Source: Escherichia coli
GTDB lineage: Bacteria; Pseudomonadota; Gammaproteobacteria; Enterobacterales; Enterobacteriaceae
Assembly (NCBI RefSeq): GCF_001677475.2
Contig: NZ_CP015229.1
DNA length: 64,000 nucleotides
Reading direction: 5' to 3' (one strand)
Shown here: piece by piece, positions 263 through 25,798 of the stretch
Position numbering within the stretch: position 1 is the stretch's first letter
Layout: every line of letters begins with the position of its first letter
Notes under the pieces: model-generated
What the model was told of the DNA's origin: nothing
The model's input: only the letters and a program-made list of their open reading frames with translations
Database searches by the model: none
Made by a program: the position numbers and the translations under genes

Positions 263-670
263 ATGGCATATGTTTATGGACTGGTAGATTCATTACAGGG
301 CACTGACATGGTGGGAATGGCGGGGGCAGGAGACAGAAAGGAATGTGTGTTCTTAGTTCAGGTATATGCACATGTGGGGAATACTGGAGCCTGGAAGCAG
401 GGGCGAAAGGTTTTTGGGGATAAATCGATCCCCAGAGGAACAGCAATTGCCACTTTTGTTAACGGAAAGTATCCCTCGAGGCAGAATGAGCATAAGCATG
501 CCGCTTTCTATCTGGAACAGGATAGTCAGTATATTTATGTTATGGACCAGTGGACAGGTAAAACCACGAAAGTCTCTGCACGCCCTATTTCCCGAAAAGG
601 TGGAATGCGCAGCGATGGAACATATCCTGATGCCAGTAATAATGCGGAAGCTTTTTATATTATTGAGTAG
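263..670 (+). CDS. Small Cys/His-containing hypothetical protein; candidate T6SS effector (amidase/peptidase-type)
   Basis: 135-aa ORF, no signal peptide, between tssC and hcp, followed by a signal-peptide protein; function not recognised. Confidence 0.35.
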   Translation: MAYVYGLVDSLQGTDMVGMAGAGDRKECVFLVQVYAHVGNTGAWKQGRKVFGDKSIPRGTAIATFVNGKYPSRQNEHKHAAFYLEQDSQYIYVMDQWTGKTTKVSARPISRKGGMRSDGTYPDASNNAEAFYIIE

Positions 671-2404: not shown

Positions 2405-3748
2405 ATGAGTTGGAATAACCGGGTGGTCTGGAGTGAAGGACAATTTTTGTTGCCACAGATGTTTCAGCAGCAGGAACGCTATCTGGAACATGTCATTCAT
2501 TATCGCAGTTTGCCTCTTTCACCTTTTTACTGGGGTTTCAATGAGTATGGTATTGGTAGTGAGGCGCTGAACATCGGAAAACTGGTACTTACGAAGGCTT
2601 CCGGGGTATTTGCTGACGGTACACCTTTTAATGCGCCGGGTCATACACCACTCCCGCCGCCGCTGACCATCCTTCCAGAACATCTTAACCAGTTGATTTA
2701 TCTGGCTGTGCCAATACGTACGCCGAACAGTGAAGAAACCAGTTTCGACAATAACCCTGAATCACTGGCACGTTTTTCGGTACATGAAAGTGAAATCCGT
2801 GATGCCAATTCGCTGGGGCGAGGCGCGCAACTGCTGCAACTTAGCCACCTGCGCTTGCGACTGTTACCGGAAAAGGCGGTGACAGACGCGTGGATCGGCC
2901 TGCCGCTGACGCGCATCACGGCGCTGCATCCCGATGGTCGGGTCGATATAGACAAAGAGTTGATCCCGCCAGTGGCGAACTACCAGGCCAGTACGCTGAT
3001 ATGTACCTGGCTGTCGTGGATTAACGATCTGATAAAAATGCGTGCAGATTCGCTGGCGGAACGATTGACGGGGAGCGACAAACACGGTCATGAAGCGGCG
3101 GAAGTGTCGGATTACCTGCTTCTGCAAGTTCTTAATCGTTTCGGCCCCTTATTGATCCATATGTCGAAAACGCCGCTATCGCCTGAAGTACTTTATCGTA
3201 ACCTCTGCGCACTGGCCGGAGAACTCTCTACCTACGTGCGTCCGCAAACACGTCGTCCGGAAGAATATAAAGAATATAAGCACCTGACGCCCTATGCCGG
3301 GCTGAAATCGGTGGTGGACGAGGTTCAGTATCTACTGAATGCTGTGCTAATACGTGGGGCGCAGCGAATCCCTCTGGAAGAGGGAACTTACGGTATTCTC
3401 AATGCGGTGGTTGAACCTACCGAACTGTCAGATTTCAGCTCGTTAGTATTGGCGGTGAAGGCACAGATGTCCGCCGACACCTTACTACAACATTTTTCGG
3501 CTCAGACCAAAATAGGGCCGTCAGAACGCCTGCCGGAACTGATTCGCTCGCACCTTCCTGGTCTTGTTCTACAGGTGCTGCCAGTGCCACCGCGTCAGAT
3601 CCCGTTCCAGTCCGGTTACATCTATTACGACATCCGCCGCGACGGCGTGTTGTGGGAACATATCGCCCGCTATGGTGGCATGGCAATGCATACCGCCGGA
3701 GAGTTTCCAGGGCTGGAGCTGGAGCTGTGGGGAGTTCGCGATAAATGA
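2405..3748 (+). CDS. tssK: T6SS baseplate protein TssK
   Basis: 447 aa; N-terminus W..GQFLLPQMFQQQERYLEH typical of TssK; order tssJ-tssK-tssL. Confidence 0.85.
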   Translation: MSWNNRVVWSEGQFLLPQMFQQQERYLEHVIHYRSLPLSPFYWGFNEYGIGSEALNIGKLVLTKASGVFADGTPFNAPGHTPLPPPLTILPEHLNQLIYLAVPIRTPNSEETSFDNNPESLARFSVHESEIRDANSLGRGAQLLQLSHLRLRLLPEKAVTDAWIGLPLTRITALHPDGRVDIDKELIPPVANYQASTLICTWLSWINDLIKMRADSLAERLTGSDKHGHEAAEVSDYLLLQVLNRFGPLLIHMSKTPLSPEVLYRNLCALAGELSTYVRPQTRRPEEYKEYKHLTPYAGLKSVVDEVQYLLNAVLIRGAQRIPLEEGTYGILNAVVEPTELSDFSSLVLAVKAQMSADTLLQHFSAQTKIGPSERLPELIRSHLPGLVLQVLPVPPRQIPFQSGYIYYDIRRDGVLWEHIARYGGMAMHTAGEFPGLELELWGVRDK

Positions 3749-4464
3749 CCGACGATATTCTGACGCAACCTGCGGTGAATACCCTGCAATTACAGCCTTC
3801 AATGAGGGGAACAAGGTCGCCTGATAATGACGGTTACGATACGCTCGTCCAGGACAGCCTTCGCAGGGAAGATATAAAGGTGGTGGTTGAAGACGGGCCA
3901 GATTTGAAGCTCCGCTTGGCTGAGATCACTGCTGCTGTGAATCCTCTTCTGGCGGCGGCCAGCCCTCTGTTATGCGCGCTGGCGCAAATGCCCCGTGAAC
4001 TTTCCCCTGGTTTTGTCGAACATTATCGCGCCCTACTGGAGCGTGAAGTCCGCCGGTATCAGACGCTGTGCGACCAGGCAAACCTGCGCCGCGAACATGT
4101 GCTGGCGGTACGTTACTGCGTGTGCACGGCGCTGGATGAAGCTGCCAACAACACCGTCTGGGGGCGACGCGGTGTCTGGGCCGGGAAGAGCCTGCTGGTG
4201 ACTTTTCATGGCGAAAGTGAAGGCGGCATCAAGCTGTTTCAGATAATCGGGCGTCTGGCCGCCAGCTTCCAGGAGCACAGCGATGTACTGGAAATCATTT
4301 ACCACATTCTGGGACTGGGTTTTGAAGGCCGCTACAGTGTACGGCCTGACGGGCGTAAACAACTGGACGATATCCGCCAGCAACTGCTGACTCAACTGGT
4401 CCAGCGTCGCGATCCGATCACGCCGACGCTCTTGCCGGGTTTTGCCGGTGCCGTCAGTGGGTGA
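3745..4464 (+). CDS. tssL: T6SS membrane-complex protein TssL (DotU-like), cytoplasmic domain; ends at in-frame TGA
   Basis: 239 aa, position after tssK; no TM helix in this ORF; next ORF is in the same frame. Confidence 0.75.
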   Translation: MTDDILTQPAVNTLQLQPSMRGTRSPDNDGYDTLVQDSLRREDIKVVVEDGPDLKLRLAEITAAVNPLLAAASPLLCALAQMPRELSPGFVEHYRALLEREVRRYQTLCDQANLRREHVLAVRYCVCTALDEAANNTVWGRRGVWAGKSLLVTFHGESEGGIKLFQIIGRLAASFQEHSDVLEIIYHILGLGFEGRYSVRPDGRKQLDDIRQQLLTQLVQRRDPITPTLLPGFAGAVSG

Positions 4465-5061
4465 ATGCGGCGGATGCGCCGGGTGCCGGTCTGGCTGAGC
4501 GCCGGAATCGCCCTGCTGGTGATGCTGACGCTGTTTGGCCTTTACAGCCACCGGATGAACCTCGCCACCGAAACCGTACAACAGCGTATCGACGCCATTG
4601 GTAAAAATCTTCCGCCGCCACCCGTTCCGGTGCATAAACTGCGGTTGAAAATCCTGCTGGCGAACGAAATCGCCCGTGGCCTGCTGACGGTGGAGGAAGA
4701 TGACCATCACAGCCGTGTAATCTTTCGTGGCGATACGATGTTTATACCGGGGCAGAAAACCGTGAATGATGCGCTGCGCCCGGTGATTGACAAGGCCGCG
4801 CGTGAGATTGCGCGTGTGGGGGGCGCGGTGACGGTGACCGGCCACACGGACAGCCAGCCGATCCACTCCGCTGAATTCCCGTCCAACCAGGTATTGTCGG
4901 AAAAACGTGCGGCAGAAGTAGCTTCGCTGCTGACATCTGGTGGCGTTCCGGCTAGCCGAATTCGGGGTGTCGGTAAAGGGGATACTATGCCGGTGGCTGA
5001 TAATAGTACTAAAACTGGACGAGCGCAGAATCGCCGGGTGGAAATTCTGGTGGTGGAGTGA
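4465..5061 (+). CDS. TM-anchored OmpA/MotB-like peptidoglycan-binding domain protein (TssL C-terminal part / TagL-like)
   Basis: N-terminal TM helix (VPVWLSAGIALLVMLTLFGL) then OmpA-like C-terminus (...VTGHTDSQP...RAQNRRVEILVVE); same frame as tssL. Confidence 0.8.
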   Translation: MRRMRRVPVWLSAGIALLVMLTLFGLYSHRMNLATETVQQRIDAIGKNLPPPPVPVHKLRLKILLANEIARGLLTVEEDDHHSRVIFRGDTMFIPGQKTVNDALRPVIDKAAREIARVGGAVTVTGHTDSQPIHSAEFPSNQVLSEKRAAEVASLLTSGGVPASRIRGVGKGDTMPVADNSTKTGRAQNRRVEILVVE

Positions 5062-5068
5062 ATTAATA

Positions 5069-5755
5069 ATGGAAAAGCTAGAGTGTAATGCGTCTAACCA
5101 TTCGCCAGTGTGGGGAGTAACAGAATTTATATTCTGGAAACTGGCGCCTAAAAAATGGGGGGGAGGCGTAGCATTTGGGCGTTATTTTAAAGATGGTTGG
5201 GTGAAGCATAACGGTCTTTTGATCAATGCAGCTGCAAATGCCTGGCATTTACCTGCCCCCTTACTTGCTGGAGTTTGTTGGATTGAAGTAGGGGGTGATC
5301 CTCAGATTATAGACACGCTGGCATTTGAATTTCGTGCTATGAGTTGGAGTGGGCCTGAATGGGTTGATGAACATATCACAATCGCTTCGAAACCAGAAAA
5401 AACTTCTTTTGGTGCGGTGAGTATGCAATTGCGAACTGCAGCCAGAACACTCGGGCTTGATGAGACTAAAATGGACAACTCTCAGTTGCGTGAGCTGGCA
5501 AATTGTCTCCAGCATGATGTGTTTAATATACAATTAGCTGCAAGACATCTTTATCAATTGGCTGAAAAAGATGGTTTTCAGGTATCCTTACCTCACCTGA
5601 CAAAAGAACAAATAAGAATTATTGGAGCTCGTTATAATCGAGGTGTTTCCCTTAGTCTGGAAAAAATAAAGGAAGATACCAGCTATGGCGATTTTATTAT
5701 AAATAACTGGTTACATTTCTCTAGTTTATTAATAACTACCTGGAAGTCTTCATGA
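5069..5755 (+). CDS. Lytic-transglycosylase/lysozyme-like (SLT-type) protein, T6SS-associated
   Basis: Motifs reminiscent of SLT domains (...WIEVGGDP..., ...FGAVSMQL..., ...GARYNRG...); no signal peptide; ATG with RBS downstream of track start. Confidence 0.45.
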   Translation: MEKLECNASNHSPVWGVTEFIFWKLAPKKWGGGVAFGRYFKDGWVKHNGLLINAAANAWHLPAPLLAGVCWIEVGGDPQIIDTLAFEFRAMSWSGPEWVDEHITIASKPEKTSFGAVSMQLRTAARTLGLDETKMDNSQLRELANCLQHDVFNIQLAARHLYQLAEKDGFQVSLPHLTKEQIRIIGARYNRGVSLSLEKIKEDTSYGDFIINNWLHFSSLLITTWKSS

Positions 5756-6039
5756 GAAAAATAATTCAGATATCAGGGTGGTTATTATTTATTATGGGAT
5801 TGGTCACTATCATGCTTTTTTCCGGGAGTGAGTACCAGTGGATGCAGGATATGGACCCTTCAATAACAGCATTACCTCAGGGAAACGGAAATAGAGATGT
5901 AATCAGAAAATTAATTTATTCTATTTCAGTGGCTATTCAGATTGTTCTTTATTTTCTTTCAGTATCGCGTACAGGAAAGGGATTTTCAGCCCTGGGTATT
6001 TTGCTATTACTGATTACCGCATGGAGCTCTGAACAATAA
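5752..6039 (+). CDS. Small integral membrane protein (2-3 TM helices); possible immunity/accessory
   Basis: 95 aa, hydrophobic helices; overlaps neighbours by ATGA/TAATG junctions. Confidence 0.4.
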   Translation: MRKIIQISGWLLFIMGLVTIMLFSGSEYQWMQDMDPSITALPQGNGNRDVIRKLIYSISVAIQIVLYFLSVSRTGKGFSALGILLLLITAWSSEQ

Positions 6040-9000
6040 TGCAAAAATTTCTCAGTCTGCTGTTTTCCCGCCGCACACTGGCCGTTGTCGGCGTGGTGGT
6101 GCTGGCGTTGCTGGTCTGGTTTATCGGGCCGCTGGTGGCGTTTGACACCTTGCATCCGCTTGCGTCCGTGGGTAGCCGGGTAGTCACTATCGTTCTGTTA
6201 CTGATGTTCCTTGCACTGTGGCTGGTTAACTGGTCGATGAGCATCATTGGCGTTACGGTTCTGTGCCTGGTTATCGGCTTTGTCTCACCGTTGCTGGCCT
6301 TCGGTGATGTTTATCCATTTGCGCCGCTGTGGCTGCGTCTGACGCTTATCGGCCTGATCCTTCTGTCTTATACGCTGTATGGCCTGTACCGATTGTGGCG
6401 GGCGCTGCGTCTGGATGAACAACTGCTGCGCCGTTTCCTGCATCCGCGCGGGGAAGATGTTCCGGTGGCAGGGGAAATTAAAGCCGACTTACGCACCGTC
6501 AGCCATATTGTCACTCGCGCTATTCGGCAACTGAAGCAACTGCGCGTAGACCTGCCGGGTTGGCGTAAGGTGCTGGAAGGAAAGCGTTTTCTGTACGAAC
6601 TGCCGTGGTTCATGGTTATCGGCAGCCCCGGTGATGGTAAAACTACCGCGCTGCTTAACACCGGGCTACAGTTTCCGCTGGCGGAGCAGATGGAGCAGAC
6701 CGCGCATATCCTTACCGTGCCGGGCGGCGGCACGCTGCACTGCGACTGGTGGTTCACCAACGAAGCGGTGCTCATTGACACTGCCGGGCGCTATGCCCGC
6801 CACGATGACGGCGGTGAAATCAGTGCGACCCAGCGCAACGCCGGGGAATGGCAGGGGTTTCTGGGACTGCTGCGTAAACACCGTCCCGGCGCACCGCTGA
6901 ACGGCGTTATCCTGACGCTAAACGTGGCGGATCTGACCGCGCAGTCCCCGGCGGAACGACTGGCTGCCTGTGCGGCTTTGCGTGCGCGGCTGGCTGAACT
7001 GCGTGAGACGCTGGGTATTCGTTTCCCGGTTTATCTGGTTGTCACTAAGATGGATCTGCTGCCGGGCTTTACGGAGTATTTCCGTGGGCTGACCAGTCAC
7101 CTGCGTGCCCAGGTCTGGGGCTTCACCCTGCCATACAGCCGCAGGCGTCACGCCAGCGATCCGCAGTCGTTGCATGCGCTCTGTGGCCAGGAACTGGCAA
7201 ATCTGACGCTGCGGCTGGATCAGGGGCTGGATACCCGGTTGCAGGAAGAGTACGACCTTAAAAGCCGTCAACGGCTCTACCGCTTTCCGCGCGAATTTGC
7301 CGCGCTGGGCGCGCCGCTGCTGGAAGCCATTGAACAGATTTTCCTCGATTCAAAATTTGACGCCACTCAGCTTAACAACACCCTACGCGGCGTATTTTTT
7401 ACCAGCGCCGCACAGGCGCAGGCAGACGCGGTGGCCGATCAGACGGGCATCTGGCAGCGCTTTGTCCGGGCGATCAAAGGGAAAGTGGAGTCACCTTCTC
7501 ATACCTTACCGGACGGCAACCGCAGCTATTTTCTTCATGACCTACTGACCCAGTTTATCTTCCGTGAAGCACACCTGGTGGAGCCGAATCTTCAATGGGC
7601 CTGGCGTTATCGCCTGCTGCGTACTGGCGGGCATCTGCTGGTACTAGCGTTGGCTTTCTGGTTGTGGCAGGGAATGCAGGGCAGCCAGCAGGGTAACAGC
7701 GGCTATCTGAATGAAATCGCCAGCCGGACGGTCCAACTGGATGGTGACGTCAAAGCCTATACCGGAAAACCTGCTATGCAGCCTGTCCCAGTCCTGTTGA
7801 ACCAGGCGCGGGCGCTCTCTGCCTGGCCGGGGCTGGACCCGGACTCACCGCCGCTGGCCTGGCGTTATGGTCTTTACAGCGTTCCGCCAGTAATGGAGAG
7901 CGTCGCATCCCTGTATGACCGTCTGCTGGACCAGCTCCTATTGCCGCCACTGGTGAAGCGCATGGAATATGTGCTTTCAGATGCCATTGCTCGTCAGGAC
8001 AGCAAAGCCGCGTATGACGCTCTGCATGTTTATCTGCTGCTGAATCTTGATAAAGACCACGAGGACAAATACAACGCAGCGGAGATCCACGCCTGGGTAC
8101 TGAACGATCTGGAAAACCGCGATAGCGTGGCGGAGTTCGGCGGCCGTGCAGCAGTGCTGGAACATATCGACGCCCTGTTTGACGGCAGCCGTGTGGTGCA
8201 TTCGCCTTATGACAAAGATGAGGGACTGATCCGCATGGCGCGGGCTTTCCTTGACGGTCATACCAGCACCGAGCGTATCTATACTCGAGCCCTGGCTTCC
8301 ATGGAGAGCGAAGCACCGCAGGAGTTTTCGCTGGTTCGCGCGGTGGGCGCGGATGCGGGGACGGTTTTTGTCCGCACGGATGGCGCGCCACTGGATAGGG
8401 GCGTGCCCGGCATCTTTACTCGCGAAGGCTACCGGGAACTGTTCGACAAACGGCTGTCGGAGTTTGTCGCCTCCGCATCAGCGGACGACGCCTGGGTAAT
8501 GGGCCGGGAAAACGCGCAAAAAAAAACGACTGATATTGTGATGAGCCAGTTGCCGGGGCAGGAACTCCCGGTTACCCGTGAGGTACGCCGCCTGTATCTG
8601 GCTGAATATGCCCGCCGCTGGCAGGATTTTCTGGCTAGTATTCACAGCATCAACAGTGCCGGGGAAGACGGTAGTCCCGGACTGGCGTATGACCTTCAGG
8701 TGCTTCGCACACTGGCCTCGCCTGACTCACCTCTGATGCGCCTGAGTAAAGCGGTGGTGGAGCAGACCACGCTGGTACCGCCGCTGGATGCGCAGGCCAG
8801 ACAAAAACAAATGGCCCAGCGCGCGCAGGACCGGCTCTCCGGTAATGCGGGTAAAGCAGTGCAGACGGCAAAGCTGTTGCAGGATATCCACCCGGAAGAG
8901 CGGCTGGAAAAATCGCTGGTGGATGACCGTTTCGCCGCTCTGCGGGAAGTGGTTTCCGGGCGGACGGACAGTGGACAGGGGGGCGGGGCGCCGCAGTTAA

Positions 9001-23114: not shown

Positions 23115-25559
23115 TTACGCGGCTTCAACTTTCCGCACTTTCTCCGGCAACTTTACCGGCTTCGTCGCCAGCTCTTCCGGATCAAAGTCATCAACGTTAA
23201 TACTGCGCAGACGGCTTTCTTCAGCTTTCACCAGCATAGCGGCTTCATCTTTATCAATCAGCCCCTTCGCCAGCGCGTTGTGCGCCAGTTCATCCAGACG
23301 GGTAAACGGCAGGTTTTTACCCAGCTCTTTACAGATCCGCTGATGAATCGGGTCGGCGGCAATCACATCCACTAGCGCCTCTTCCAGTAAACCAACTGGG
23401 TTATGCTCGCTCGGCGTCAGGTACTGACCGCGACCAATGCGGGAACGGGTGGCGTTCGGCACTTGTAAAATCTTCGCCACCTTATGATCCAGCTTGTCAG
23501 ACGGTGCCAGATAATGACGTCCGGTCGGGAAGATCACCACATTCAGCAGCCCGGCAACCACGCGGTTCGGGAAGTTTTGCAGTAAATCGTCCATCGCCTG
23601 TTCTGCCTGATACAGCGCATCCTGTACGCCCCAGTGCACCAGCGGCAGGTCGGCTTCATTACGGCCTTCGTCGTCATAACGCTTCAGAACGGCAGAGGCG
23701 AGGTAAAGCTGGCTTAAAATATCCCCCAGACGTGCCGAGATACGCTCGCGACGTTTCAGGCTGCCGCCCAGCACAGCCATCGAGACATCAGAAAGCAGGG
23801 CGAGGTTGGCGCTCAGGCGGTTCAGGTGTTGATAGTAGCGTTTAGTGGCATCGCCGGTTGGCGTGCTGCTGGTTAAACCGCGCGTCAGGCCCAGCCAGAA
23901 GCTGCGAACTTTGTTGCTACCGACGTGACCGATATGTTTAAACAGGAGTTTATCGAACGCGTTGACGTCATTGTTCTTCGCCGCTTCCATCTCTTCCAGC
24001 ACGTACGGATGGCAACGAATCGCTCCTTGTCCGAAGATCATCATGCTGCGGGTCAGAATGTTAGCCCCTTCAACGGTGATGGCAATCGGTGCGCCCTGGT
24101 AAGCACGCGCCAGGAAGTTGCTCTGCCCGAGCATAATGCCTTTGCCACCAGTGATATCCATCGCATCAATAATCGACTGCTGCCCACGGTGGGTACAGTG
24201 ATACTTAACGATAGCCGACAGCACGGCAGGTTTCTCACCGAGCATAATGCCGTAGGTAATCAGCGACGCCGCAGCATCCATTACGTACGCATTACCGGCA
24301 ATACGCGCGAGCGGCTCTTCAATCCCTTCCATCTTACCAATAGAAATTTTGAACTGACGGCGAATGTGCGCATACGCACCCGTTGCCAGCGCTACCGATT
24401 TCACGCCGCCGGTTGAGTTGGAAGGCAGGGTGATGCCGCGGCCTACCGAGAGGCACTCCACCAGCATCCGCCAGCCTTGCCCGGCCATTTTTGGTCCGCC
24501 GATAATGTAATCGATCGGTACGAAGACATCTTTACCGCGCGTCGGTCCGTTCTGGAACGGTACGTTCAGCGGGAAATGGCGACGACCAATTTCCACGCCC
24601 GGCGTGGTGGTCGGGATCAGCGCACAGGTAATACCTAAATCTTCTGCGCCACCCAGCAGTTTTTCCGGGTCGGAGAGTTTAAACGCCAGCCCAAGCACGG
24701 TCGCAATCGGTGCCAGCGTAATGTAGCGTTTGTTCCAGGTCAGACGCATCCCCAGCACCTGCTGGCCCTGCCATTCCCCCATGCAGACAATTCCGGTATC
24801 CGGGATCGCGCCCGCATCGGAACCCGCTTCCGGGCTGGTCAGTGCAAAGCAAGGGATTTCCTGACCACGCGCCAGACGCGGCAGATAGTGATTTTTCTGC
24901 TCGTCAGTGCCGTAATGTTGCAGCAGCTCGCCCGGACCTAATGAGTTCGGCACGCCGACGGTAATCGCCAGGATCCCGCTCACGCCGGAGAGTTTTTGCA
25001 GCACGCGAGACTGGGCATAAGCCGAGAACTCCAGCCCGCCGTACTCTTTTTTGATGATCATCGCGAAGAAACGATGCTCTTTAAGGTACGCCCACAACTC
25101 CGGCGGCAAATCAGCCAGCTCATGAGTAATCTGGAAATCATTCGCCATCCGGCAGGCTTCTTCTACCGGGCCGTCGAGAAACGCTTGCTCTTCTGCGGTC
25201 AGGCGTGGCTGCGGATAGTTATGCAGCTTTTTCCAGTCCGGCTTGCCCTGGAACAAATCGCCTTCCCACCAGGTGGTGCCTGCGTCGATTGCTTCTTTCT
25301 CAGTGCGCGACATCGGCGGCATTACCTTACGGAAACCGCGAAATACCGGCGCGGAAATCATCGACTTACGCATAGGCGCAAAGTTAAATGGCACGAGGAT
25401 AATGGCCAGAGGCACCAGTACCCACGCCGACCACAGACCAGCAACGCCGAGGGCGGCTGTCCAGGCGAGCAAAATCAGACTGCTGATAAATAAGCTCACG
25501 CGGTGATAGAACAACGCGCCGAGCAGGACAACCGTAGCGAGAATACTCAAAATCATCAT
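23115..25559 (-). CDS. fadE: Acyl-CoA dehydrogenase FadE
   Basis: Matches E. coli FadE from [11 protein letters not shown]...; track ORF carries a 26-codon upstream extension. Confidence 0.92.
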
Positions 25560-25798
25560 AACGAAAAGCCCCTTACTTGTAGGAGGTCTGACCACTTGTG
25601 ATGATATGGTTGTAGTGGATGTAAAAACATTTAGCAATGTGTTTACAATATAATTACAACAAAGCTCACATTGTTGCTGTTTTTATCCGCACTTCAGGTC
25701 AAAAAGTCCTGGTCATAGCACCTGCCCGTACTTCTCGCTTTTGGCGGTATCCGGTACACTGCATTTTGTCTATTACATTTATGCTGAAGGATATCCTC

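What the first reader, a model, noticed from the sequence alone, without database searches (positions are those of the whole stretch)
3745..5061. TssL split from its TM/OmpA-like domain by an in-frame TGA
ORFs 3745..4464 and 4465..5061 are in the same reading frame and separated only by TGA (GGG TGA ATG CGG). The first part has no TM helix; the second starts with the TM helix and carries an OmpA-like peptidoglycan-binding C-terminus. This is either a natural two-gene arrangement with tight TGA-ATG coupling, a nonsense mutation that would cripple the membrane complex, or stop-codon readthrough giving a fused TssL-OmpA protein.
Basis: seen in the sequence. Interest (0 to 1): 0.55.

Follow-up and report, generated by a model that had tools for sequence, protein, structure and literature searches.

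The report
Strain-specific nonsense mutation in tssL
A single C-to-T change has put a premature stop codon into the tssL gene of an E. coli type VI secretion system, cutting the cytoplasmic domain off from its membrane anchor and cell-wall-binding domain; this is an ordinary, recent gene-inactivating mutation, not a designed two-gene layout or recoding signal.

Summary
ORF 3745..4464 (239 aa, DotU domain) and ORF 4465..5061 (198 aa, TM helix plus OmpA-like domain) are in one frame, separated only by TGA 4462-4464.

The two pieces are consecutive halves of one gene, tssL long form. They match positions 17-234 and 238-432 of the same 432-position NCBIfam profile.

All 8 orthologous E. coli loci I aligned have a single 1317-nt tssL with CGA or CGG (Arg) at codon 240. 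None of 5,426 complete E. coli genomes carries the 65-mer with TGA. Homologues in other genera are fused proteins of about 430-460 aa, and the Met after the stop is Leu in five other-genus homologues, so it is not a conserved start.

Only two substitutions in the gene are unique to this strain: S230L and R240*. The window is identical to GCA_002516285.1 contig NJSK01000030.1, and the exact 239-aa product occurs on only 4 contigs.

There is no SECIS or Rfam hit. In EAEC, a TssL stopped just before its TM segment is stable, cytoplasmic and non-functional.

Verdict: a recent nonsense mutation (R240*) that most likely disables this T6SS-2. Low interest.

The parts
3745..4461 (+). tssL 5' fragment, codons 1-239: the cytoplasmic DotU domain without its membrane anchor. 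Its ATG overlaps the tssK stop (ATGA).
   Evidence: TIGR03349 DotU E 3.8e-53, but only profile positions 1-171 of 211. PRK08126 positions 17-234 of 432. PDB 4V3I, V. cholerae TssL cytoplasmic domain, E 1e-20. Pfam PF09850 is precomputed for the called gene.
4433..4433 (+). Strain-unique C>T substitution, TCG>TTG (S230L). It is the only other change in tssL not shared with any of the 8 orthologues.
   Evidence: Column-by-column comparison with 8 orthologous loci.
4462..4464 (+). Premature stop codon TGA at codon 240 (R240*). It arose by C>T at 4462 from CGA.
   Evidence: 7 of 8 orthologues have CGA and one has CGG at this codon. No complete E. coli genome has the TGA 65-mer.
4465..5061 (+). tssL 3' fragment, codons 241-438 plus the stop: the juxtamembrane MRRMRR stretch, the TM helix and the periplasmic OmpA-like peptidoglycan-binding domain. 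If translated at all, this would be by reinitiation at ATG 4465 or ATG 4474, or from GTG 4483.
   Evidence: PRK08126 positions 238-432 of 432; TIGR03350 E 2.7e-49. PDB 4B62 TssL1 E 1.5e-26. A gene caller picked GTG 4483, giving 192 aa.
4483..4545 (+). The single transmembrane anchor of TssL (residues 247-267, VPVWLSAGIALLVMLTLFGLY), now separated from the DotU domain.
   Evidence: Kyte-Doolittle 19-residue window maxima of 2.06-2.08 start at residues 247-249.
4885..4932 (+). Intact peptidoglycan-binding motif NQVLSEKRAAEVASLL (N-x2-L-S-x2-R-A...).
   Evidence: Regex match at residues 381-396. The equivalent TagL residues N494, L497, S498, R501 and A502 are required for cell-wall binding (PMC8253398).
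2405..3748 (+). tssK (context), intact at 447 aa.
   Evidence: TIGR03353 E 5e-120.
6039..9905 (+). tssM (context), intact at 1288 aa. It lies downstream in the same orientation, so it could suffer polarity if the tssL 3' fragment is poorly translated (inferred).
   Evidence: TIGR03348 scores 1052 bits.

Best explanation
tssL (long form) of the T6SS-2 cluster of this E. coli strain carries a recent, lineage-restricted nonsense mutation, CGA>TGA (R240*), seven codons before the transmembrane segment.

Shown: the two ORFs are halves of one gene, and the stop replaces an Arg codon present in every orthologue examined.

Inferred: translation ends at codon 239 and releases a soluble, unanchored DotU domain. 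The TM plus OmpA-like part is made, if at all, as a separate signal-anchored protein, by termination-reinitiation at the adjacent ATG.

TssL must be anchored in the inner membrane to work. It follows, again by inference, that the TssJLM membrane complex cannot be built properly and this T6SS is probably inactive or severely impaired. The locus is an early-stage pseudogene.
For: - One gene, not two. The N and C pieces match contiguous parts of one profile, PRK08126 positions 17-234 and 238-432. The intact orthologue matches positions 26-432 at 654 bits.
- Annotated orthologues are single genes. RefSeq annotates the orthologues in strains A20, PapRG-06-5 and SCU-113 as a single 1317-nt 'TssL, long form' CDS at the same position between tssK and tssM.
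- Arg in all orthologues. All 8 orthologous loci have CGA or CGG at codon 240. Only two positions in the gene are unique to the window, S230L and R240*, both C>T.
- Rare allele. 0 of 5,426 complete E. coli genomes hold the TGA-containing 65-mer, while 21 hold it with one mismatch, all inside a tssL long-form CDS. The exact 239-aa product is on only 4 contigs, against clusters of 298, 210 and 76 members for 438-aa forms.
- Fused across genera. Homologues from Citrobacter, Enterobacter, Snodgrassella and Burkholderia-group genera are fused DotU+OmpA proteins of about 430-460 aa. In the five I read (Citrobacter, Enterobacter, Snodgrassella, Burkholderia), residue 241 is Leu, so the ATG is not a conserved start.
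- TM region removed. The DotU profile is matched over 1-171 of 211 in the fragment, against 1-209 in the intact protein.
- Experimental precedent. EAEC TssL-deltaTM, made by a stop codon a few residues before the TM, is produced at normal levels and fractionates with the cytoplasm. It fails to restore Hcp release or biofilm formation (PMC3426401).
- Other lesions nearby. The same genome has a 1-nt insertion in the 187-aa gene after clpV. Relatives carry independent tssB, tssM and hcp lesions. T6SS loss in E. coli lineages is documented (PMC10711316).
Against: - The rest of the cluster visible here looks intact: tssB, tssC, hcp, tssJ, tssK, tssM, vgrG and clpV. So there is no long decay; this is consistent with a recent event but also with retained function.
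- The stop is immediately followed by ATG (0-nt spacing). Termination-reinitiation works in E. coli at that range (PMC10666635), so the C piece may well be made. The EAEC experiment did not test co-expression of the two halves, and it used a short-form TssL from a different T6SS subtype.
- UGA is the leakiest stop, with 2-4% readthrough in K-12 reporters (PMC10570021), and UGAA binds RF2 relatively weakly (PMC5373646).
- No read-level data were available to exclude a base-call error.
Confidence: 0.86

Rival explanations
1. The split is tolerated. Function would be retained either by low-level readthrough of UGA-A by tRNA-Trp, giving full-length TssL(R240W), or by non-covalent cooperation of a soluble DotU domain with a separately made TM-OmpA protein reinitiated at the abutting ATG. 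The second route would mimic the natural TssL + TagL division of labour.
For: - UGA readthrough is 2-4% in K-12 reporters, and UGAA is a relatively weak RF2 signal.
- The TGA|ATG spacing of 0 nt lies within the -8..+10 nt range where termination-reinitiation operates.
- The C piece starts with MRRMRR followed by a 21-residue hydrophobic helix. That is a plausible N-in signal anchor (the topology is inferred).
- Position 240 is variable: R, Q or K among the homologues read.
- The neighbouring core genes are intact.
Against: - With the RF2 allele of non-K-12 strains, readthrough products of native UGA stops become undetectable (PMC5373646).
- Each membrane complex needs many TssL copies (stoichiometry from my own knowledge, not checked here). 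An excess of unanchored DotU domain would be expected to compete for partner proteins (inferred).
- Unanchored TssL is non-functional in EAEC.
- Natural short TssL proteins keep their own TM. No orthologue, and no homologue I read, shows a TM-less DotU plus a separate TM-OmpA.
- There is no recognisable SD at a useful distance from ATG 4465 (my reading).
Confidence: 0.07
2. Sequencing or assembly error: the real genome has CGA, and the TGA is a consensus artefact of a draft assembly.
For: - The source is a draft assembly, GCA_002516285.1, contig NJSK01000030.1.
- The difference is a single base.
- The same assembly shows another single-base lesion nearby.
Against: - The exact 239-aa product is recorded from both NCBI and Logan sources, on 4 contigs (one 50-200 kb, three 20-50 kb). 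So at least one independent assembly reproduces it.
- Substitution errors in consensus sequence are rare, and the site is not in a homopolymer.
Confidence: 0.05
3. A conserved, natural two-gene arrangement or programmed recoding (selenocysteine or programmed readthrough) at UGA.
For: Only the local appearance: an in-frame TGA directly followed by ATG, and domain boundaries that fall neatly on either side of it.
Against: - 8 of 8 orthologues have Arg codons, and 0 of 5,426 complete genomes have the TGA 65-mer.
- Homologues in other genera are fused.
- Met241 is Leu in other genera.
- Rfam gave no hit even at E<=10 over 4200-4800.
- The RNA fold downstream is unremarkable, z = -1.36, with 17 of 200 shuffles folding at least as well.
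Confidence: 0.02

Closest known systems
TssL, long form ('specialized TssL': DotU cytoplasmic domain + one TM + C-terminal OmpA/Pal/MotB-type peptidoglycan-binding domain; NCBIfam TIGR03349 + TIGR03350)
   Same: The gene sits in the same position between tssK and tssM, has the same 1317-nt length, and is 91-97.5% identical in nucleotides to intact E. coli orthologues. It has both domains, the TM segment and the PG-binding motif.
   Different: Codon 240 is TGA instead of CGA or CGG. The polypeptide is therefore broken between the DotU domain and the TM anchor.
Engineered EAEC Sci-1 TssL-deltaTM (stop codon at Y184, a few residues before the TM; Aschtgen et al. 2012, PMC3426401)
   Same: A stop codon lies a few residues upstream of the TM segment, leaving a soluble DotU domain. 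In EAEC that protein is stable, cytoplasmic and unable to complement a tssL mutant.
   Different: The EAEC protein is a short-form TssL from a different T6SS subtype, with no OmpA domain. In the window, the downstream TM+OmpA part could still be translated separately, which was not tested in that work.
Natural division of labour: short TssL plus a separate PG-binding accessory protein (TagL, TagP, TagN, TagW)
   Same: The cytoplasmic or baseplate-docking function and the cell-wall anchoring function would sit on two polypeptides (PMC8253398).
   Different: In natural systems the short TssL keeps its own TM anchor and the arrangement is conserved. Here the DotU piece has no anchor and the arrangement is unique to one strain.
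Lineage-specific inactivation of E. coli T6SS genes (for example tssM interrupted by ISEc12 in ST131 clade C, and a 21-kb deletion in ST410-B; PMC10711316)
   Same: An essential membrane-complex gene of an otherwise complete chromosomal T6SS is disabled in one lineage. Relatives of this allele also carry tssB, tssM and hcp lesions.
   Different: The lesion here is a point nonsense mutation in tssL, not an IS insertion or a deletion, and it is seen on only about 4 contigs.

Membership tests
TssL long form (intact, functional member) | DotU/TssL cytoplasmic domain | tested here: met
   TIGR03349 E 3.8e-53. PDB 4V3I E 1e-20.
TssL long form (intact, functional member) | The TM anchor lies on the same polypeptide as the DotU domain (single uninterrupted ORF of about 430-460 aa) | tested here: not met
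   TGA at codon 240. The DotU profile is covered over 1-171 of 211 in the fragment, against 1-209 in the orthologue.
TssL long form (intact, functional member) | C-terminal OmpA-like PG-binding domain with the N-x2-L-S-x2-R-A motif | tested here: met
   TIGR03350 E 2.7e-49. Motif at residues 381-389. PDB 4B62 E 1.5e-26.
TssL long form (intact, functional member) | Encoded in a T6SS cluster next to tssK and tssM | tested here: met
   tssK is at 2405-3748 and tssM at 6039-9905. The cluster layout is shown.
Natural two-gene TssL + PG-binding accessory arrangement | The split is conserved in orthologues and relatives | tested here: not met
   8 of 8 orthologues are fused. 0 of 5,426 complete genomes carry the TGA 65-mer. 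Homologues in other genera are fused.
Natural two-gene TssL + PG-binding accessory arrangement | The TssL part retains its own TM anchor | tested here: not met
   The only strong hydrophobic segment (residues 247-267) lies after the stop.
Natural two-gene TssL + PG-binding accessory arrangement | The downstream gene has a conserved independent start codon | tested here: not met
   Residue 241 is Met only in Escherichia. It is Leu in Citrobacter, Enterobacter, Snodgrassella and Burkholderia.
Programmed UGA recoding (selenocysteine or programmed readthrough) | UGA conserved among orthologues | tested here: not met
   Orthologues have CGA or CGG.
Programmed UGA recoding (selenocysteine or programmed readthrough) | A SECIS or other stimulatory RNA element just downstream | tested here: not met
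   No Rfam hit at E<=10. The fold has z = -1.36.
Pseudogene by nonsense mutation | The stop differs by one base from a sense codon conserved in orthologues, and is restricted to one lineage | tested here: met
   CGA>TGA. The exact product is on 4 contigs only. It is absent from complete genomes.
Pseudogene by nonsense mutation | Loss of function of the product | not testable with these tools
   Inferred from the EAEC TssL-deltaTM result (PMC3426401). It needs an Hcp secretion or killing assay in this strain.

The most novel reading that the evidence does not exclude
The strain still fires its T6SS-2 despite the stop. This could happen because a few per cent of ribosomes read UGA-A as Trp and make enough full-length TssL. 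Alternatively, the soluble DotU domain and a reinitiated TM-OmpA protein could reassemble. In that second case the strain would be a natural experiment showing that covalent linkage of TssL to its anchor is dispensable, and a snapshot of how TssL + TagL-type split systems could arise.
Probability: 0.05. Interest if true: 0.4.

Novelty: already known. Interest (0 to 1): 0.1.

Why it matters
It matters little beyond this strain. It predicts that this isolate's T6SS-2 is inactive, adding one more case to the known pattern of T6SS decay in E. coli lineages.

For annotation, the two ORFs should be merged and flagged as one tssL pseudogene with an internal stop, not reported as a 'DotU protein' plus an 'OmpA family protein'.

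The strain could serve as a ready-made test of whether TssL tolerates separation from its anchor, but there is no evidence that it does.

Tried and rejected
- **Selenocysteine or a structured recoding signal.** Rfam at E<=10 over 4200-4800 gave nothing. Folding 4455-4530 gave z = -1.36. Rejected.
- **Conserved split arrangement.** I searched E. coli complete genomes, the 5.8-billion-protein set and orthologous contigs. All were fused. Rejected.
- **A non-E. coli Escherichia source.** I considered this because the T6SS and Flag-2 regions are only 89-96% identical to E. coli. However, fadE is 98.6% identical, so this is E. coli carrying divergent island alleles.
- **Exact look-up of the 198-aa C piece.** It was not in the collection, because gene callers started it at GTG 4483, giving 192 aa. 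This is uninformative.
- **Selection analysis (dN/dS) on the window lineage.** Not attempted. Only two lineage-specific substitutions exist, so there is no power.
- **Rest of the cluster in the source genome.** I could not see tssA, tssE, tssF and tssG, because the locus fetch reaches only 10 kb upstream.
- **Other samples with the truncated product.** The tool collapses similar places, so I could not list the other samples.

Full report
**Observation**

The sequence at 4456-4476 reads AGT GGG TGA ATG CGG CGG ATG. TGA occupies 4462-4464 and ATG occupies 4465-4467. ORFs 3745..4464 (239 aa) and 4465..5061 (198 aa) are in the same frame, and one continuous translation shows a single internal stop. 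The tssL start ATG at 3745 overlaps the tssK stop (ATGA), which is the usual operon junction.

**What the two pieces are**

Against NCBIfam, the N piece matches DotU/TssL (TIGR03349, E 3.8e-53). It covers only profile positions 1-171 of 211. The C piece matches the 'TssL long form' OmpA-like domain (TIGR03350, E 2.7e-49).

Both pieces hit the same full-length model, PRK08126, over positions 17-234 and 238-432 of 432. They are therefore consecutive halves of one protein. An intact E. coli orthologue matches positions 26-432 at 654 bits and covers the DotU model over 1-209 of 211.

Solved structures agree. The N piece aligns to the cytoplasmic domain of V. cholerae TssL (4V3I). The C piece aligns to the periplasmic domain of P. 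aeruginosa TssL1 (4B62).

The only strong hydrophobic segment is residues 247-267, seven residues after the stop. The PG-binding motif N-x2-L-S-x2-R-A is intact at residues 381-389. The equivalent TagL residues are required for cell-wall binding (PMC8253398).

**Source**

The window is identical over 10,464 bases to GCA_002516285.1 contig NJSK01000030.1. fadE at 23115-25637 is 98.6% identical to E. coli, so the organism is E. coli. The T6SS-2 and Flag-2 islands are more divergent alleles, at 89-96% identity.

**Comparison with orthologues**

- In strains A20, PapRG-06-5 and SCU-113, RefSeq annotates one 1317-nt CDS, 'TssL, long form'. It is exactly as long as 3745-5061 and lies between tssK and tssM.
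- Across 8 orthologous loci that are 91-97.5% identical in this gene, codon 240 is CGA in seven and CGG in one.
- Only two positions in the whole gene are unique to the window: TCG>TTG (S230L, position 4433) and CGA>TGA (R240*, position 4462). Both are C>T transitions.
- A 65-mer spanning the stop has no perfect match in 5,426 complete E. coli genomes. Twenty-one genomes match with one mismatch, all inside a tssL long-form CDS.
- In the large protein collection, the closest clusters are 438-aa proteins with 298, 210 and 76 members. Homologues from Citrobacter, Enterobacter, Snodgrassella and Burkholderia-group genera are fused DotU+OmpA proteins of about 430-460 aa.
- In the homologues I read, position 240 is R, Q or K. 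Position 241 is Leu outside Escherichia, so the ATG after the stop is an accident of the Escherichia sequence and not a conserved start.
- The exact 239-aa product is recorded on only 4 contigs, from NCBI and Logan sources.

**Recoding**

Rfam finds nothing at E<=10 in 4200-4800. The RNA downstream of the UGA folds no better than shuffled sequence, with z = -1.36. Because the UGA is also not conserved, selenocysteine and programmed readthrough are excluded.

**Mechanism and consequences (inferred)**

Ribosomes terminate at codon 240 and release a soluble DotU domain. The abutting ATG lies at 0-nt spacing, within the -8..+10 nt range in which termination-reinitiation operates in E. coli (PMC10666635). 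A separate protein starting MRRMRR plus the TM helix could therefore be made, and it would plausibly insert N-in with the OmpA-like domain in the periplasm. If reinitiation is poor, about 600 nt of untranslated RNA could also cause polarity on tssM.

The closest experimental precedent is EAEC TssL-deltaTM, made by a stop codon a few residues before the TM. It is produced at normal levels and fractionates with the cytoplasm. It cannot restore Hcp release or biofilm formation (PMC3426401). That experiment has limits: it used a short-form TssL from another T6SS subtype and did not co-express the anchor.

Background UGA readthrough is 2-4% in K-12 reporters (PMC10570021), and UGAA binds RF2 relatively weakly. 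With the RF2 variant of E. coli B, readthrough products of native UGA stops disappear (PMC5373646). That wild isolates also carry this variant is from my own knowledge, not from the paper. I therefore expect very little full-length protein, and a large excess of unanchored DotU domain.

**Context of decay**

About 2.7 kb upstream of the window, the same genome has a 1-nt insertion that frameshifts the 187-aa gene after clpV. Close relatives with intact tssL carry other lesions. One has split tssB and tssM. Strain A20 has an IS21 element next to a truncated hcp, plus a frameshifted tssM. Parallel T6SS loss in E. coli lineages is published (PMC10711316). The other core genes visible in this strain are intact: clpV, tssB, tssC, hcp, tssJ, tssK, tssM and vgrG. 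This fits a recent event.

**Verdict**

This is a real, strain-specific nonsense mutation (R240*) in a well-known gene, so the locus should be annotated as a tssL pseudogene. The residual alternatives are a tolerated split or leaky readthrough (about 7%), a base-call error (about 5%), and a conserved arrangement or recoding (about 2%). Interest is low.

Noticed in passing
L011:3465-4029 (source contig NJSK01000030.1, about 2.7 kb upstream of window position 1): The 187-aa gene just after clpV is split into 39-aa and 128-aa ORFs by a 1-nt insertion relative to L007, L008 and L009. This is a second small lesion in the same T6SS cluster of the same genome.
   Followed up: partly
window 263-670 and 683-1135: A BPSL0067-family protein (135 aa) and an STY0301-family protein (150 aa) sit between tssC and hcp, exactly where related clusters carry Tae4/Tai4. 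This looks like a swappable effector/immunity slot.
   Followed up: partly
window 5069-5755 and 5752-6039: A 228-aa protein with no Pfam or NCBIfam hit and a 95-aa protein lie between tssL and tssM. The 95-aa protein at the corresponding position in relatives has a weak DUF2645 hit. Other strains carry a Tlde1-domain protein plus a 147-aa protein in this slot, so this may be an uncharacterised effector/immunity pair.
   Followed up: partly
window 10152-10847 and 10844-11320: A Rap1a-like protein (231 aa) is immediately followed by a Tae4-like amidase (158 aa), downstream of tssM. Next come TagF, VgrG (13452-15665) and a PAAR-Rhs protein (16153-20295).
   Followed up: no
L005/L006 (GCA_023870785.1, SRR21849213) and L001 (E. 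coli A20): Among the relatives compared, the tssL-intact ones carry other T6SS lesions. In L005, tssB is split (93 + 86 aa) and tssM is split (833 + 454 aa). In A20, hcp is truncated next to an IS21-family element and tssM is frameshifted. These are independent hits on the same cluster type.
   Followed up: partly
window about 1-21000 (T6SS-2) and about 36000-60000 (Flag-2 lateral flagellar cluster), versus 23115-25637 (fadE): The two islands are only about 89-96% identical to the best E. coli complete genomes, while the core gene fadE between them is 98.6% identical. So the islands are divergent alleles, probably exchanged by recombination. By ORF lengths, the Flag-2 genes look intact compared with strain FREC5.
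   Followed up: partly
window 4033-4866 (- strand) and 4940-5755 (+ strand): A long antisense ORF (277 aa, GTG start) lies opposite tssL. A GTG-extended version of the 228-aa gene overlaps the tssL 3' end. Neither corresponds to a CDS annotated in relatives; the 228-aa gene itself is annotated from the shorter start. They are probably spurious ORFs of a GC-rich region.
   Followed up: no
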